DNA from: Candidatus Tayloriibacteriota bacterium
GTDB lineage: Bacteria; Patescibacteriota; Minisyncoccia; Phycocordibacterales; JACOZD01
Length of the DNA stretch: 37,929 bases
Reading direction: 5' to 3'
Assembly (NCBI GenBank): GCA_016181525.1
Contig: JACOZD010000022.1
Coordinates: forward strand, 1-37,929
Program-made: the position numbers
In this document: positions 18,001 to 24,000 of the stretch, one piece after another
How positions within the stretch are numbered: position 1 is the stretch's first letter
Layout of the letters: the number at the start of each line of letters is the position of its first letter

Positions 18001-21000
18001 GCGGGAGCCGGTAGCCCACACATAGTGTCTTAAGAGCACATCCGTGTGAGTGGTGAGCGCCATGACCCCGGCAACCGTGAGCGGAGACCGCTTTTGCTGC
18101 TTGAGGATCTTCTCGGCGTTCTTCGGCGATTTGCCGAGGGTGCTCGAGCCGTCCTCGACATCGTAGATGTAGTAGGGCTTGCTCGGAGCGTCCACCACAT
18201 CGGAGATCTGCGTCGGGTTGAGGTGAGTGTAACCCACCTTTGAACCGTTCCGCACCATAGCCATGAGGTCGTAGGGGCTCCGAAAGGAACGGGGGATGAC
18301 CGGGAGGAACGGGATGTTGCCGTCTCCGATGGTCATTTCGCTCGCCTTCTTCACCACCTGACCTTTCTGGTTCTGGAGTATCTCCACGATCTGCTCGCGG
18401 ACGCCGCGATCCTTGAGGGTCGCGATCTGACTGTCGAAGAGCTTCTCGAGGTCGTTCTTCTTGCTGTCCTGCTTGGACATCTTTTTCATCAGTCTTTCCT
18501 TCTTTTTTGAGATTATTCCGTTGTCAAAGCCCAGCCCATACTGGACTTTCACTTTCTGTATTAAGTATAGCAAATTACTGCCTTCCTGTCAAGCAGGAGG
18601 GCCGCGGGCGTGCAATTTGGCCGGCACTGTTGCATTATATGTCGCAGAGCGTACTTTGATTATGACAAACACAGAAATTCAGAAAGTCTACAATATTCCC
18701 GGAGCGGTATCTCTCATTATCGGGGCTGTTGCTGCCGTTATGGCGGGAGTTCTCATCGCCAATTTAGCAGTGCTCCTCCTGCCGGCCTTTTTCACCGACA
18801 GTAACTTCGAAAAAATCGTCTTGAACTGGTCGCTGTTCGGCATAACCGCCGTTTATGTTTCCGCCTTTGGCATCGTTGACATTCCCATCGGCCACGCCGG
18901 AGTAATCTTCATCGTCGGCCAGAGAGTTCGAAACTACATGCTCGGCGAGGGGCTGGCTTGGATTCTGCCCTATCCCTTTGCCAAGGCAGTCCCCGTCGAT
19001 ATGCGGGAGAACCGCACGGAGGTGGATGGATTTGATATCCTCTGTTTCGGCGCCGAGAAGACCGGCACCTCCGTGAACTTCAAAACCGCCATACTCTGGA
19101 AGGTCAAGGACCCAATGACCTTCATTGATGTCTTGCCGATAGCGCACTCAAACATTCACTCCATAGCCCTCTCCGCCATCCGAGCCGTGGCCTCGGTCTT
19201 GGACGTCATCACCGTCCTCAAAGCCCAGAGCGACTTTGCCGAGATTATCAAAAAGGGCTCCGTCGCCGCAGAAGCAAGGTGGGGACTTTCGATTATTCAG
19301 GTTATCGTCTCCTCCATCGTGCCTTCAGACAAGGAGGTCATATCTGCCTTCAACCAAGCCCAGATTGAGAAGAGCCAAAAAGAGGCCGAGTCCACGGAAG
19401 GTAAACTCCTCTTGGACTACATCAGGGCCCTGGTTGATGTCGGTCTGACGCCGGAATACGCGAGCGGCGTGGCCATGGCCGAGAGGGGCAAGATTCAGAT
19501 TAAACGCTTCGACATCAATCAGACGGGCAACCCGTCTCTCGCTGGAGCGGCGGCAATCATCGCGGAGTTGCTCAAGGAGAGAGGTTATCCGCCGCCGCCG
19601 CCAGACGGGAACGGGGATAAACCGCAAGACAAAGGGAGGGGGTGAGAAAGTATGTATGAAGCCCTGCCTCCCAAAATCGCCCGCCGCTGGGGTGTTAGAG
19701 CCATCGCGAGATATTTCATTGTTCTCTGTCTGTTCCTCTTCCTCATGAGTCCCATTTATTCTTTCTACGATTGGCTCAACCGAGCCAGCACCGAGAAAAT
19801 AAGAGCGGCTAAGAAGGCGGAAGAGCAGAGGAAGACAACGCCAAACTACTTCGGTCAGTACTGGGTGGCCCGCTGGACCAAACTGCCGCTATTCAAAAAA
19901 GGCGAGGAGGGGGAATCATACTCCGGCTGGTACTACGCCCGAATTCTCAAGTACGACACCATGGACTTCCAGTTTGTGGTCTACGGCAAAGGCACCAACA
20001 TCCACGGCTACTTCAACTGGAACAGGGCCAAAAATCCCCACTTCGGCGAATGGTCACAACCTGACCCGCCGGGGAAAGGGACGTGGTACCTTTCAGCCAT
20101 AAACACCGAACTCTTCGCCGGCTCAATCGGCGACGAGGACGGCCATGAGTCAGTCTTTCTGCTCGAGCCGGCCGAGGTGGTTAAAAGACACAGACAATAG
20201 CAAACACCGCCCCGTGACGCTTAGCGCTTTACGGGGTTTTTAATTAACTCAAAAACTAGATTGGCAAAAAGAAAGGGATGTCGGGGGGCGGGATGCCTAA
20301 GGTATTGACGATAACGGCGATGATGCCGTACACCGAAACCATGATGGCGATGCCGACAATGCCCCAAATCATGTGGAGTCGGCCTTTCTCTCTCGCCTGC
20401 TCGTTGTCCGCTCCGCGGATAAACTCATACACTCCCCAAACGAAAACCACCACCGCCAAGGCGAACAGAAGCTCCATCAAAGGATTAACAATCTGCTCGT
20501 TGAGTTTGAGGATAAGTTTGGTGAGCGTTTCGTTCACTTTTACCTCGTGCCGGGGAGAAGGTGAGAATAGCAACCAAGCCCCAGACCGAGACCATGACGG
20601 CGATGGCGATAATGCCGTAGAGCATAGTCTGTCTCGCTCCTTTGCGCTTTTCCTCATCAGCGCCAGACAAAACATACGTAAAGACTCCCCAGATAAACCA
20701 GACCACCGCCAGAGCCACTATCACAGGCACCACTTTGTTCAAGAGGTCGAGAATTCGGGTAAAAAGCGTGTCCGCGTCCCGCACTTGGGCCAGAGCCAGA
20801 AGCGGCAAGGCGTACGAAACGGCTACGGTAGAGAAAGAAATTAATTTATTCATAAATCTTAAAAATGTTAAATAAGTGACGTTAAATAAGTGACCTTTGT
20901 AATTCCTTATATTATAAAACTTTTAAGAGCGGCGCTCAAGCGGCGCTGTGGATATTCACACCCCGCGCTGGAAAAGGTCCAAATCGCGCAGTCTCTGCGT

Positions 21001-24000
21001 ATCGTCATCTATATCCCTGACCTCATTCAAAGGAGCTCTGCTAAACAGGGTGCGATTGACAATTTTAACCAAGCCCCAGACCGAGACCATGACCGCCAAA
21101 CCGATAATGCCGTAAAAAATGTAATCACGGGCCTCCTTGATTTTGTCCTCACTGCCGCCGGCCCGGACGTACTTAAGCAAACCCCACATAAAAGTCACGA
21201 CCGCCAGAGTCACAATGAGCGGGATAACTTTATCCAGGACACCTATGAATTTGCTGACGACGTCGGCGAAGGTCTTCATTTTCAAAAGCCGGGGCCAAAC
21301 GGCCCGCCAATTTCCTTAATTGTTCCTCGGATAACCTCGGCAATGAGCTTGGCGCCGAGGAGAATGGCTGTGCCGATGACCGTGCCGAAGAAGGTCGCCC
21401 GGGCAGTCTTCAACTTTTCGGTGTCGCCCCGAGCGCTGACGAAGAGAAAGCCGGAATAGACAAAGAAGAAAACGGCGATGACGGCGCCAATGTTCACCAC
21501 GATGTCCAAAATGGCGGCGATGAAGCCCTGGATGCTGTCGTATTTGAGAGGGTTGTCCAGTTTCATCTCTTTATTTTAACAGCGAATAACTCGAGTCCTC
21601 AAGCAAAGCACTAGTGATGGCGAAGACCACAAGCCAAGCCGAGAGCATAACAACAAATCCCAAAATCACCTTGGTGAAAATCCGCCTGGCCTCGGCCATC
21701 TTGCCGGTGTCGCCGGCGGCGGTCATGTACTTAATGCCGGCATAAGCGAAAACAGCCGCCGAGACGGGCACGGCGATGATGATGAGGTAGTTGATGACGC
21801 GGCGAATGAGGGCGACCAGTTCATCGAAGTCGCACTCCTCTACAAACTCGCCGGTTCTCCGGTCGAGTTCTTGACTGCACTGAACGAGGGACTTGTCATC
21901 CCCATCGGCCGAGACGAGAGTCGGCGCGGCCGAGACGAGCAAAAAAAGCAGGAGCGCAGTGACCGCAATCATTTGGGATAAAGGACGCATTTATGGATTA
22001 TATCTTCCCACAAGTTCAGAAATTTCCAAACTGGCGCGTTTGACGGCTTCAGAGACCGACTTCTCGCCGCTCCCGACCGCCTCAATCATCTCGGCAAACA
22101 GCCGCCGGCTCTCGGCGGGCGCGGGGTCGAGCCAGGAGCGGGCGCGCAGAGCGGCTCGATAAACCGTCTCGCGCGAAGCTTCCCCCGCTCCGGCGACCCG
22201 GCCGTCTGGCGAGACTCGCTCCGGAGGAGCGGCGAGAAGCGAGCGGGCGGCCGGAGCGAGTGACGAAAATTTAGAAACTTGGCCGAGAAAGTCGGCGCTC
22301 GAAAGCAATCCGGCCGCCCGCGAGGCGGCGGCGAGGTTGCGGGAGCTCTTAATGATAGCCGCGCCCATGACCCGGCCGAAAGTAATCCTGCGCCGGCCGG
22401 GGGATAGCAGAGGCAGTTCGGCCACGTCGAAGTTAAGGTTGGGGTTTGAGGCCTTGAGCAGTTCGGCCTCGGAGCCGAGACCGAGATAAAGAGCCAGGTC
22501 TCCGGCCAGAAAGAAGTCGCGCGAAGCCGGCAGAGAGCGGTTCCAGGCGTAATTATCCCGGCGGGGGTTGGAGAAAGAAGTATAGAAGGCGAGCGCCTCC
22601 TCGGCCGGCACCCTGCGCTCGGCCTTACGGTCGAGAACACTCAAGAGATAGCCGCTTTCTTCGGCCACAATGGACGTGCCGGCTTGGAGAAACAACGCCG
22701 AAAGAATCTCCTTAAAGTTGGTGACATTCCTTGCCTCGCCCAAGGCGATGGCGCTGACGGCGACGTTGCCGTTGCGGTCGGAGTCGGAGAGTTTGGGCGA
22801 GAGAGTCACAACCTCCTCCCAGGTCGCGGGCGGCGAGGCCACGGCGACATCGGAGAGAAGGTCGCGATTCCAGTAAAGGATAAGCGGGTCAACGAACATG
22901 GGCAGAGCGTAAATAACGCCTTGTCCCAAGAAGACCTCGCCGCCCTCTACAAAAAATGACTTGAAGGAACGCTCGGAGAAAGAGGCAAAGGGGATGGGAA
23001 AGAGCTTATCACGGTGGCGGAGAATAGAGTCGGAGGGCAGAATGGCCAGGTCGGGACCACGGCCGGCGGCTAGGGCCTCAAGGAGCTCTTCGTCGAGGGT
23101 TCGGGCGTCTTTCTCCACATACTTTAAGCGCAGAGTTTTGCTCTCTTTGAAGTTGAGGTCAGAGACGGCCTCGGCCATATCGTCGGCTTTGACACTGCCC
23201 CACAAAACCACCTCGGAGAGCTCCTGCCGCCCGCCGCCGCCCAGAGCGGCAAACAAAACCAGACCGGCGATGATGGCCAGTCCGAAAACCGCAAGTAAAA
23301 TAATCTGAAAGTTACTCATTTCTTCCGCAAGATAAGTCCATAATGATAATCGCCGGCGCCAATCTCTCCCTCGAGCGAGAAACCGTGCTTCTCAAATAAT
23401 TTAAGCGCGTCCGAACGCGGCACGGCGCCGCTTTTTGGCCCTACTCCTCCGACTCCTCCGGCAGTCCAGTCGACAAGCAGGAGTCGGCCTCCGGGCTTCA
23501 AAATTCTTTTCACTTCCTCAACCAGAGCGTCATGGTCATCGGCCTGAAAGAGAACGTTGGAAAGGATGGCCCGCTCCACCGAGGCGTCGGACAGTTTCGT
23601 CCCCCCGCGCTTTTCAGCGTCTCCCAAAATTATCTCCACGTTCTCGAGACGCGCCGCCTTAGCCTGGTTTCGGATTCTTTCCAGGAGGTCGCGCTGGACG
23701 TCCACGGCGTAGACCCGGCCGAGCTCTCCCACCTTGCGGGCCAAAGCTAAAGTGTAAAAACCCGAGCCGGCGCCGATGTCAGCCACATGAAGGCCGGCAT
23801 AGACATCAAACTGCTCGATATTTGATTCGGGAGAAGTGAACATGCGTGACACCAATCTACGAATTCGCACGAATGACACGAATGTAGATTTATCAATTAT
23901 AAGTCCAGTGTCGCTTATTCCGAAACCGGCAATCCACATGCCTTGATGCAGAAATTGATGCAGAAAAGTGCAACACAGTTTTGTGCAACACTCGGTGTTG

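What the first reader, a model, noticed from the sequence alone, without database searches (positions are those of the whole stretch)
20256..21990. Tandem array of five paralogous small 2-TM proteins (pilin-like family) in two transcription units.
Five consecutive minus-strand genes (94-139 aa) share one architecture: a hydrophobic helix, a short charged loop with consensus (A/S)G(A/G)(D/S)-x-(E/D)K-x-K-x-AR, and a second Gly/Ala-rich helix ending in MVSVWG/MLSAWL. Two copies (b and e) carry N-terminal signal peptides. C-terminal tails are different and hypervariable. The layout (two helices, conserved extracytoplasmic loop, optional signal peptide, multiple paralogs) resembles VirB2/TrbC-type or Gram-positive/CPR T4SS-pilin-like subunits. 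No VirB4/VirB6/VirD4 is present in this window. Genes e-d-c are packed with overlapping stops and starts. Genes b-a have their own TATAAT promoter with a perfect 14-bp tandem operator-like repeat. Gene b overlaps gene a by 53 nt.
Basis: partly seen in the sequence, partly recalled or inferred. Interest (0 to 1): 0.75.

Follow-up and report, generated by a model that had tools for sequence, protein, structure and literature searches.

The report
Conserved VirB2-like pilin gene array
Five neighbouring small membrane-protein genes in this ultra-small (Patescibacteria) bacterium belong to the known type IV secretion "pilin" family, and together with a sugar-binding-protein gene they form a block that has the same layout in at least 58 related species, which had apparently not been pointed out.

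Summary
Five minus-strand genes (a 20256-20537, b 20485-20853, c 20956-21279, d 21282-21566, e 21571-21990) are homologous two-helix membrane proteins. The window is a whole contig of a Candidatus Taylorbacteria MAG. Tandem VirB2-like pilin arrays in Patescibacteria are already published (Wang 2023; Quinonero-Coronel 2025), so the array as such is known.

Findings added here:
- In the 80 best-matching species-level loci, wherever the contig continues, the order is Lactamase_B-gyrA-methyltransferase-SBP-pilins. The array is unlinked from virB4.
- The pilins fall into position-specific orthologous classes (E, D, C x1-3, B, A). This argues for non-redundant subunits, not a variation cassette.
- A ~100-nt gap before the last two genes is conserved. 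It holds a sigma-70-like promoter preceded by a DnaA-box-like motif.
- The 53-nt b/a overlap comes from a 40-nt frameshifting deletion seen only in this assembly.
- The 14-bp tandem repeat is specific to this population among the species compared. It duplicates a leader segment that overlaps a leader motif found in 26 of 59 species.

The pilus function is inferred, not shown. No T4SS machinery lies in the window.

The parts
21571..21990 (-). Gene e (139 aa), class E pilin-like protein. It has a signal peptide, an N-terminal extension with two Cys (C38, C53, CDFDEL motif) and two TM helices. It starts directly after the SBP stop codon.
   Evidence: PF18895 42.2 bits. The best 20 BLASTP hits are all position-1 (E-type) genes of other species. 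58/59 E-type orthologues have >=2 Cys.
21282..21566 (-). Gene d (94 aa), class D, the most VirB2/TrbC-like paralogue. It begins at the conserved NPL motif and lacks the signal peptide that most orthologues have.
   Evidence: PF18895 34.4 bits and TrbC PF04956 22.5 bits, which is below the GA threshold. D-type orthologues: 58/58 hit PF18895 and 54/58 hit TrbC. The NPL motif is in 53/59. 45/59 D-type proteins have a third hydrophobic segment, taken as a signal peptide.
20956..21279 (-). Gene c (107 aa from ATG 21279; the alternative TTG 21285 gives 109 aa), class C (B-like; copy number 1-3 in other species). No signal peptide and an atypical acidic tail.
   Evidence: PF18895 33.1 bits. NCBI calls it as 107 aa, HYT43_02185. 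Its best hits are split between B- and C-type. Same-genome C and B copies are 41% identical.
20911..20954 (-). Internal promoter region: DnaA-box-like TATCCACA (20954-20947), then -35 TTGAGC (20939-20934), a 17-nt spacer and -10 TATAAT (20916-20911).
   Evidence: Promoter scan, 10/12 match. The motif [AT]ATCC[AC]CA is in 37/59 orthologous gaps against 0.49 expected. The -10 hexamer starts 36-38 nt after the box in 26/37. The gap before the penultimate pilin has a median of 102 nt against 3.5-14 nt for the other gaps.
20867..20894 (-). Perfect 14-bp tandem duplication GTCACTTATTTAAC x2 in the predicted 5' leader of b.
   Evidence: no other copy in the window. It is present in L001 and L002, which are the same population. 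The other 58 species-level gaps show no such duplication; 26 of the 59 gaps (window included) carry a GGTC[GA][TC] motif about 42 nt before the start codon.
20485..20853 (-). Gene b (122 aa as it stands), class B, with a signal peptide. Its last 24 residues are out of frame because of a 40-nt deletion at about 20560. The intact form is 117 aa and ends ...AILTGTFRLNNQPELPPLLPGTR.
   Evidence: PF18895 38.2 bits. The intact allele is P0038, found in L001-L004. 19 of its best 20 hits are penultimate-position genes. The AF2 model of P0038 shows a signal-peptide helix and a two-helix hairpin at 27-62 and 67-100, pLDDT 77.
20256..20537 (-). Gene a (93 aa, GTG start 5 nt after GAGG), class A. It is always the last gene of the array and lacks a signal peptide in most species.
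   Evidence: PF18895 38 bits. NCBI calls it HYT43_02175, 93 aa. 19/20 best hits are last-position genes. 51/59 A-type proteins have only two hydrophobic segments.
20211..20235 (-). Possible terminator hairpin (CCCCG...CGGGG) after gene a, between the array and the convergent gene 19652-20200.
   Evidence: Fold gives -17.1 kcal/mol but a z-score of only -1.3. The terminator scan did not call it. This is weak evidence.
21991..23319 (-). Membrane-anchored family-1 (MalE-like) solute-binding protein, 442 aa. It is the conserved first gene of the SBP-pilin module.
   Evidence: SBP_bac_1 40.9 bits. Its profile hits sugar and maltose SBPs in the PDB at E about 1e-14. >=565 relatives exist in GTDB species genomes. 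In every locus whose contig continues, pilin genes follow it.
23316..26502 (-). Upstream conserved context: SAM methyltransferase (23316-24023 as the longest ORF; orthologues are about 175 aa) and gyrA (24031-26502). With SBP-e-d-c they probably form one transcription unit.
   Evidence: Pfam. The same order was found in the 3 loci reached from pilin homologues and in nearly all 80 SBP-anchored loci.

Best explanation
What is shown. The five genes encode VirB2/TrbC-superfamily pilin-like subunits (Pfam PF18895). They belong to a conserved chromosomal module of Paceibacteria: gyrA - methyltransferase - membrane-anchored MalE-like SBP - pilin classes E, D, C(1-3 copies) - internal promoter - B, A. 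Family membership, class structure, synteny and the promoter architecture are all shown here.

What is inferred.
- Insertion: the proteins enter the cytoplasmic membrane via Sec and signal peptidase I (e, b), or without a leader (d, c, a).
- Topology: both termini lie outside and the charged loop lies in the cytoplasm, as for VirB2 and TraA.
- Assembly: the MPF-FATA-like T4SS that most Patescibacteria encode elsewhere (VirB4-TrsD-VirB3-VirB6) extracts and polymerises them into a surface filament or conduit used in host contact.
- Division of labour: the classes are ancient and keep their positions, so they are non-redundant parts of a heteromeric structure. B and A, behind their own near-consensus promoter, are probably the abundant subunits. 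E, D and C, co-transcribed with the SBP, are probably minor or initiating subunits.
- Regulation: the DnaA-box-like element at about -45 suggests that DnaA or another factor controls B-A expression.

In this assembly, b carries a frameshifting 40-nt deletion that replaces its exposed C-terminal tail.
For: Family.
- All five genes score above the PF18895 threshold.
- D-type orthologues hit TrbC/VirB2 in 54/58 cases, best E 6.6e-9.
- B/C/A-type and D-type profiles align at 99.4% probability.
- Six PF18895 genes next to VirB6 are essential in S. epibionticum. The review literature treats these as VirB2-like pilins.

Module.
- 80 of 80 SBP-anchored species loci show pilin genes downstream wherever the contig continues. 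Of 71 arrays followed by at least 600 nt of contig, 59 have 5-7 genes.
- Position-specific best hits: 89% for position 1, 87% for position 2, 79% for the penultimate gene, 80% for the last.
- Orthologues are 33-39% identical. Same-genome paralogues of other classes are 17-31% identical.

Promoter.
- The gap before the penultimate gene is conserved at about 102 nt.
- The box-N5-TTG-N17-TAnAAT architecture is enriched more than 70-fold over the flanks.

Expression and machinery.
- T4SS pilin genes, including an adjacent pair, are among the most expressed genes of unknown function in Paceibacteria cultures.
- 5 of 5 related genomes that carry the module and appear in the published table are VirB4-positive.
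Against: - No VirB4, VirB6, VirB3 or T4CP gene lies in the 37.9-kb window.
- No recurrent large P-loop ORF other than IF-2 and ClpB lies within +-10 kb in 80 related loci.
- Presence of VirB4 in this MAG is untested. Only 14 of 23 Taylorbacteria MAGs in the published table have it, and those MAGs are incomplete.
- Fold searches cannot tell a pilin hairpin from any other helical hairpin.
- No pilus has been seen in any Patescibacterium as far as the papers read here say.
- The strict coupling to an orphan SBP is not explained by a pilus model.
- In this window, d and c lack signal peptides and b is frameshifted.
- The major/minor subunit assignment and the DnaA link are inference only.
Confidence: 0.6

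Rival explanations
1. The five 2-TM proteins and the SBP form a T4SS-independent membrane complex. This could be the membrane part of a novel binding-protein-dependent uptake or sensing device, or a 'bindosome'-like scaffold that positions the SBP at the cell surface. In this reading the VirB2 homology reflects ancestry only.
For: - SBP-pilin adjacency, with gaps of about -4 to +10 nt, is essentially invariant across species.
- The number and order of classes are fixed, as expected for a stoichiometric complex.
- No T4SS gene lies within +-10 kb.
- The published table shows that at least some Patescibacteria genomes, including the Paceibacteria genome GCA_000505065.1, have separate PF18895 genes right next to virB4. 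The gyrA-linked set may therefore not be needed as the T4SS pilin.
Against: - No ABC permease or ATPase accompanies the SBP.
- The family is sequence-related to genuine pilins.
- In Saccharibacteria the same family lies inside the essential T4SS cluster.
- Signal peptides and exposed, variable termini fit secreted or polymerised subunits.
- No precedent is known for 2-TM hairpin pentads acting as transporters.
Confidence: 0.2
2. The array is a variation cassette: interchangeable major-pilin paralogues used for antigenic or host-range variation. This has been proposed for VirB2 arrays of Bartonella, Anaplasma and Patescibacteria.
For: - The published interpretation of Patescibacteria arrays takes this view.
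- Paralogues are only 20-37% identical.
- The middle C-type genes vary in copy number (1-3) and resemble B of the same genome, 41% identity, which suggests ongoing duplication or conversion.
- Population-level variation exists in the exposed tail of b.
Against: - Classes E, D, B and A are position-specific orthologues kept across about 60 species.
- They carry class-specific motifs: a Cys pair in E, NPL in D, no leader in A.
- Cross-species orthologues are more alike than same-genome paralogues.
- All genes sit in two fixed operons, with no sign of switching elements.
Confidence: 0.12
3. The genes encode small membrane proteins unrelated to secretion, such as holins, bacteriocins or immunity proteins, or stress proteins.
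For: Only weak sub-threshold hits support this: YxzE-like bacteriocin 18.6 bits against a cutoff of 40, plus DUF families.
Against: - All five pass the PF18895 threshold.
- No holin or defence-related PHROG hit was found.
- The genes sit in a conserved housekeeping context with no phage or toxin genes adjacent.
Confidence: 0.03

Closest known systems
VirB2-like pilin array of Southlakia epibionticum ML1 (SEML1_0014-0019) and the 'VirB2 arrays' catalogued in Patescibacteria (Wang et al. 2023 Cell, PMC10633639; Quinonero-Coronel et al. 2025 Microb Genom, PMC12102498)
   Same: Same Pfam family (PF18895, some members also PF04956). Tandem array of 5-6 divergent paralogues of about 100-140 aa. Monoderm, host-dependent, ultra-small bacteria. 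Low identity between paralogues.
   Different: - The Saccharibacteria array lies inside the T4SS cluster directly after VirB6 and is experimentally essential.
- The array here lies next to gyrA, is fused to an SBP gene, has no T4SS gene within 17 kb or more on either side of the array, and nothing has been tested.
- The published survey looked for arrays near virB4. In the part of its Table S3 that was read, PF18895 hits appear only for virB4-proximal genes. This module therefore seems to have been missed or only partly scored (T_virB2 or PrgF hits marked 'No').
TrbC/VirB2 conjugative pilins of diderm T4SSs (Pfam PF04956; Agrobacterium VirB2, RP4 TrbC, F TraA)
   Same: A leader peptide, two hydrophobic helices and a short basic/acidic loop. 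D-class members are detectable with the TrbC HMM. The predicted helical hairpin agrees.
   Different: - Window proteins are below the TrbC threshold.
- There are five classes, not one major pilin plus VirB5.
- Three of the five lack leaders.
- The organism has no outer membrane.
- There is no adjacent VirB machinery.
- Cyclisation, lipid binding and polymerisation are untested.
Minor/major pilin sets of type IV pili and T2SS pseudopili (for example PilA plus FimU-PilVWXE with PilY1). This is an analogy only, drawn from general knowledge.
   Same: A fixed set of about five paralogous small subunits with distinct conserved identities. Some are co-transcribed with a large non-pilin partner protein, and others are expressed from a separate strong promoter.
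   Different: A completely different fold and assembly machinery (type IV pilins have a class III signal peptide and a single N-terminal helix). There is no homology.
NCBIfam NF045849, Mbov_0395 family pilin-like conjugal transfer protein of Mycoplasma ICEs
   Same: A small 2-TM pilin-like protein of a monoderm T4SS. All five window proteins give their best NCBIfam hit to it (E 2.7e-7 to 1e-3).
   Different: Scores of 19-30 bits are below the 40-bit cutoff. It is a single-copy gene in a mobile element, not a chromosomal five-class array.

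Membership tests
Pfam PF18895 T4SS_pilin | Whole-protein HMM score at or above the gathering threshold (26.6 bits) | tested here: met
   a 38.0, b 38.2, c 33.1, d 34.4, e 42.2 bits. 58/58 D-type orthologues also match.
Pfam PF18895 T4SS_pilin | About 70-residue core made of two hydrophobic helices joined by a short charged loop, with an optional N-terminal leader | tested here: met
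   Alignment A1. Hydrophobic-segment counts per class. AF2 hairpin at 27-62 and 67-100 with pLDDT around 90 in the core.
TrbC/VirB2 pilin (Pfam PF04956) | HMM score at or above the gathering threshold (27.9 bits) | tested here: inconclusive
   Only d matches, at 22.5 bits and E 1.4e-4, below threshold. Its orthologous class matches in 54/58 members at E<=0.01, best 6.6e-9.
TrbC/VirB2 pilin (Pfam PF04956) | Encoded within or beside a T4SS gene cluster (VirB4, VirB6, VirB3...) | tested here: not met
   No such Pfam family appears in any window ORF scanned. None lies within +-10 kb in L005-L007. There is no recurrent VirB4-sized P-loop ORF in 80 loci.
TrbC/VirB2 pilin (Pfam PF04956) | Structure superposes specifically on solved conjugative pilins | tested here: inconclusive
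TrbC/VirB2 pilin (Pfam PF04956) | Polymerises into an extracellular pilus in a VirB4-dependent manner | not testable with these tools
   This needs experiment (cryo-ET, shearing and proteomics, genetics).
Patescibacteria VirB2-like pilin arrays (Quinonero-Coronel 2025) | Two or more PF18895/VirB2-like genes in tandem with low mutual identity (reported mean 25%, maximum 54%) | tested here: met
   Five genes with 20-37% identity. The definition is quoted.
Patescibacteria VirB2-like pilin arrays (Quinonero-Coronel 2025) | The genome also encodes the Patescibacteria-clade VirB4 | not testable with these tools
   Only this contig of the MAG is available. As a proxy, 5/5 related genomes with the module are 'VirB4: Yes', and 14/23 Taylorbacteria MAGs are 'Yes'.
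Binding-protein-dependent ABC importer | The SBP is accompanied by permease and ATPase genes | tested here: not met
   The SBP is genuine. No BPD_transp or ABC_tran gene is in the window ORFs or the L005-L007 flanks.
Holin / bacteriocin / immunity proteins | A significant match to a holin or bacteriocin family | tested here: not met
   Pfam gives only YxzE at 18.6 bits against 40. PHROGs gives no holin hit.
DnaA box (consensus TTATCCACA, from general knowledge) | A 9-mer matching the consensus, conserved at a fixed promoter position | tested here: met
   The window has aTATCCACA, 8 of 9. The exact TTATCCACA is in 11 of 59 gaps and the relaxed motif in 37 of 59, against 0.49 expected. Spacing to the -10 is fixed. 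DnaA binding itself was not tested.

The most novel reading that the evidence does not exclude
The SBP and the five pilin classes build one heteromeric apparatus that is specific to Paceibacteria. It would be a VirB2-type filament or channel that carries or docks a MalE-like binding protein. Functionally this is a 'binding pilus' or bindosome-like nutrient-scavenging conduit aimed at the host surface. Its abundant B/A subunits would be switched on through a DnaA-box element and so coupled to the cell cycle. This would be a T4SS-derived uptake organelle, not a secretion or conjugation device.
Probability: 0.12. Interest if true: 0.85.

Novelty: new variant of a known kind. Interest (0 to 1): 0.5.

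Why it matters
Patescibacteria make up a large share of bacterial diversity and live attached to host cells. Their T4SS and its pilin array are essential in the one species that has been tested, yet nobody knows what the system moves or builds.

This work shows that in Paceibacteria the pilin genes are a fixed, five-class set. They are welded to a sugar-type binding protein next to gyrA and have a conserved internal promoter. That gives three concrete handles:
- which subunits to tag or delete;
- which partner protein to test;
- which cis-element to probe.

It also argues against the prevailing view that these arrays are antigenic-variation cassettes. Finally, it flags that virB4-centred surveys under-count these arrays.

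Tried and rejected
- Exact-sequence look-up of the 139-aa form of e found nothing. The databases hold a 133-aa call, P0041.
- Sequence search of the pilin profile against the PDB gave only noise.
- tblastn of b against 72,556 plasmids gave no match.
- PHROGs found no holin or other informative hit.
- Rfam and ARAGORN found only five tRNAs in the window and nothing in the array.
- The hairpin after gene a is not significantly more stable than shuffled sequence, so it is only a possible terminator.
- My early idea that b+a is the split form of the 196-244-aa 'double pilins' was wrong. Their halves are B-type plus C-type.
- The idea that the 14-bp tandem repeat is a conserved operator was rejected. 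No other species compared shows the duplication.
- Table S3 of the 2025 survey is truncated in the held copy, so the Taylorbacteria rows could not be read.

Full report
**Origin and observation.** Three of the five small proteins are stored in public databases as products of a 37,929-nt contig of a 'Candidatus Taylorbacteria bacterium' MAG: HYT43_02175 = a, HYT43_02185 = c, HYT43_02190 = d. The window is therefore that whole contig.

Reading the sequence gives the following.
- e runs 21571-21990, and its ATG directly follows the TAA of the upstream gene.
- d runs 21282-21566, 4 nt after the stop of e.
- c runs 20956-21279 from an ATG 2 nt after the stop of d. An alternative TTG at 21285 would overlap d by 4 nt.
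- b runs 20485-20853.
- a runs 20256-20537 from a GTG 5 nt after a GAGG.

The proteins align over a helix, charged loop, helix core with an invariant Arg (A1). Genes b and e have canonical leaders ending ALA|Q and VSA|D.

**Family.** All five exceed the gathering threshold of Pfam PF18895 'T4SS_pilin', at 33-42 bits against 26.6. Gene d also gives a sub-threshold TrbC/VirB2 hit. NCBIfam's nearest model is the Mycoplasma ICE pilin-like protein, below its cutoff. No holin, bacteriocin or phage family competes.

Of 58 orthologues of d from other species, 54 match TrbC/VirB2 at E<=0.01, best 6.6e-9. A profile of B/C/A-type relatives aligns to the D-type profile with 99.4% probability, E 1e-21, over leader, both helices and loop. 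All classes are thus homologous and are tied to classical VirB2 through class D.

An AlphaFold model of the intact b protein is a leader helix plus a long two-helix hairpin. Fold searches against the PDB return only generic helical proteins. Structure therefore neither adds to nor detracts from the assignment.

**What is already known.** PF18895 proteins form a six-gene array next to VirB6 in Southlakia epibionticum, and all six are essential for epibiotic growth. A survey of 3,035 Patescibacteria genomes reported 441 'VirB2 arrays' of 2-11 genes, with mean identity 25%, and suggested a role in host-range or antigenic variation. A 2025 review calls these systems unique among monoderms for possibly making a conjugative-type pilus. 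The array as a kind is therefore published.

**Context in the window.** Every sizeable ORF was scanned. The neighbours are housekeeping genes:
- gyrA, a SAM methyltransferase, and a membrane-anchored family-1 SBP abutting e;
- downstream, a convergent unknown gene and a Band_7 protein;
- further away, RF, GAPDH, FtsA/FtsZ, Pth, signal peptidase I and pentose-phosphate enzymes.

No VirB4, VirB6, VirB3 or coupling protein is present.

**The module is conserved.** Three divergent contigs reached from pilin homologues all show Lactamase_B_3 - gyrA - methyltransferase - SBP - 5 pilin genes by my pilin HMM (4-5 of them labelled PF18895 in the precomputed Pfam calls).

I then searched one genome per GTDB species with an SBP alignment. 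At least 565 loci encode a relative, and the best 80 were fetched. Using a pilin HMM built from the window and database hits, pilin genes follow the SBP gene within a few bases in every locus whose contig continues. Of 71 arrays followed by at least 600 nt of contig, 25 have five genes, 21 six and 13 seven. gyrA and the methyltransferase precede the SBP almost everywhere. No recurrent VirB4-like ORF lies within +-10 kb.

The SBP profile matches maltose and sugar binding proteins in the PDB at E about 1e-14. It has no partner permease or ATPase.

**Ordered orthologous classes.** The best inter-species BLASTP hit of a gene at position 1 is position 1 in 89% of cases. The figures are 87% for position 2, 79% for the penultimate gene and 80% for the last gene. 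The middle genes vary in number and resemble the penultimate one.

The window's genes map as e=E, d=D, c=C/B, b=B and a=A. Orthologues are 33-39% identical. Same-genome paralogues of different classes are only 17-31% identical, except C against B at 41%.

Classes have their own hallmarks:
- E has a leader and at least two Cys (58/59).
- D has a leader and an NPL motif (53/59).
- B and C have a leader and often a Pro-rich tail.
- A lacks a leader in most species (51 of 59 have only two hydrophobic segments).

This pattern is what one expects of distinct structural parts. It is not what one expects of interchangeable variants.

**Two transcription units, with a conserved control region.** All intergenic gaps have medians of 3.5-14 nt, except the one before the penultimate gene: median 102 nt, IQR 85-122, n=64. 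In the window that gap holds TTGAGC-17-TATAAT.

Across species the gap starts with [T/A]ATCC[A/C]CA. This motif is in 37 of 59 gaps against 0.49 expected from the flanks, and the exact DnaA-box 9-mer TTATCCACA is in 11. It is followed 5 nt later by TTG, and the -10 hexamer starts 36-38 nt after the start of the box. The full architecture occurs 28 times in this gap and 9 times in the remaining 1.09 Mb. At least three of those nine are inside or next to the array. That DnaA binds here is a hypothesis.

A second motif, GGTC[GA][TC], lies about 42 nt before the start codon in 26 of 59 species. The window's perfect 14-bp tandem repeat begins inside its copy of this motif. No such duplication is seen in the other species, so it is specific to this population and not a conserved operator.

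**The 53-nt overlap.** Four Logan assemblies from the same study (L001-L004) are 99.2-100% identical to the window. They contain 40 more bases at about 20560 (GGCACCTTCCGGCTTAATAATCAGCCGGAACTGCCTCCCC), flanked by a 6-nt microhomology. With those bases, b is 117 aa, ends in the family-typical ...GTFRLNNQPELPPLLPGTR, and stops 2 nt before a. Without them the frame shifts, which gives the odd 24-residue tail and the overlap. Whether the deletion is a real allele or an assembly error needs read mapping.

**Mechanism.** The following steps are inferred. Leader-bearing subunits with two TM helices must have both termini outside and the loop in the cytoplasm, as in VirB2 and TraA. Extraction and polymerisation would need the T4SS encoded elsewhere.

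Evidence bearing on this inference:
- Five related genomes that carry the module and appear in the 2025 survey are all VirB4-positive, and 14 of 23 Taylorbacteria MAGs are VirB4-positive.
- T4SS pilins, including an adjacent pair, are among the most expressed genes of unknown function in Paceibacteria cultures. This fits a strong separate promoter for B-A.
- The survey's table shows PF18895 hits only next to virB4, and scores distant ones as T_virB2 or PrgF marked 'No'. This may explain why the gyrA-linked module was not described.
- I found no paper that links an SBP to these arrays.

**Verdict.** The array is a known kind. The SBP-coupled, virB4-unlinked, five-class module with its conserved promoter is a new variant worth a short follow-up. 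The pilus function itself remains unproven. A T4SS-independent SBP-pilin complex is the main rival.

Noticed in passing
window ~20560 (gene b); L001:3014-3053: A 40-nt deletion relative to four independent assemblies of the same population. It frameshifts the C-terminal tail of b and creates the b/a overlap. A 6-nt microhomology sits at the junction.
   Followed up: yes
window 20947-20954 (-) and the orthologous gaps of L010-L089: A DnaA-box-like motif (TTATCCACA family) lies 5 nt upstream of the -35 of the internal pilin promoter. It is present in 37 of 59 species-level gaps (window included) and is essentially absent from the flanks.
   Followed up: partly
P0001-P0040; L005:10001-10729, L019, L031, L058, L065: Many database relatives are fused 'double pilins' of 196-311 aa with four TM helices. 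The N half is B-type and the C half is C-type. They occupy the middle of the array.
   Followed up: partly
window 4338-6071 (+) and 18461-20200 (+): Two paralogous gene pairs, each a Band_7/SPFH protein followed by an unknown protein of about 180-200 aa. One pair lies convergent to the pilin array. Single members of the pair (a Band_7 gene or the unknown gene) also lie next to the array in L006, L038, L057 and L082.
   Followed up: no
window 6123-7280 (-): A 385-aa protein with a just-sub-threshold lytic transglycosylase hit (SLT_2, 24.0 bits against 24.3). It could be a VirB1-like cell-wall hydrolase, but it is 13 kb from the array.
   Followed up: no
window 14497-15168 (-): An AbiEii-family nucleotidyltransferase toxin (type IV toxin-antitoxin) sits among sugar-phosphate metabolism genes.
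   Followed up: no
L038 and L062 (between gyrA and the methyltransferase); L007:20017-20360; L073:11291-12880: Extra pilin-domain genes lie outside the main array. One is an additional gene of about 155 aa upstream of the methyltransferase. Another is a protein of more than 343 aa with a PF18895 hit 10 kb downstream. A third is a 529-aa ORF (longest-start call, not checked) at the E position.
   Followed up: no
window 21282-21566 and 20956-21279: Window genes d and c lack the signal peptide present in most of their orthologues (45/59 D-type and 73/106 C-type have a third hydrophobic segment). Gene d starts exactly at the NPL motif that lies shortly after the leader in its orthologues.
   Followed up: partly
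L010-L089 record titles: Many loci with this Paceibacteria-type synteny are labelled 'uncultured Candidatus Saccharibacteria bacterium' in their TPA records. The labels look generic or wrong.
   Followed up: no
PMC12102498 Table S3: In the published survey, runs of adjacent genes far from virB4 are scored as T_virB2 followed by FATA_PrgF. This suggests that B/C/A-type pilins may be homologues of the enterococcal pCF10 PrgF protein.
   Followed up: no
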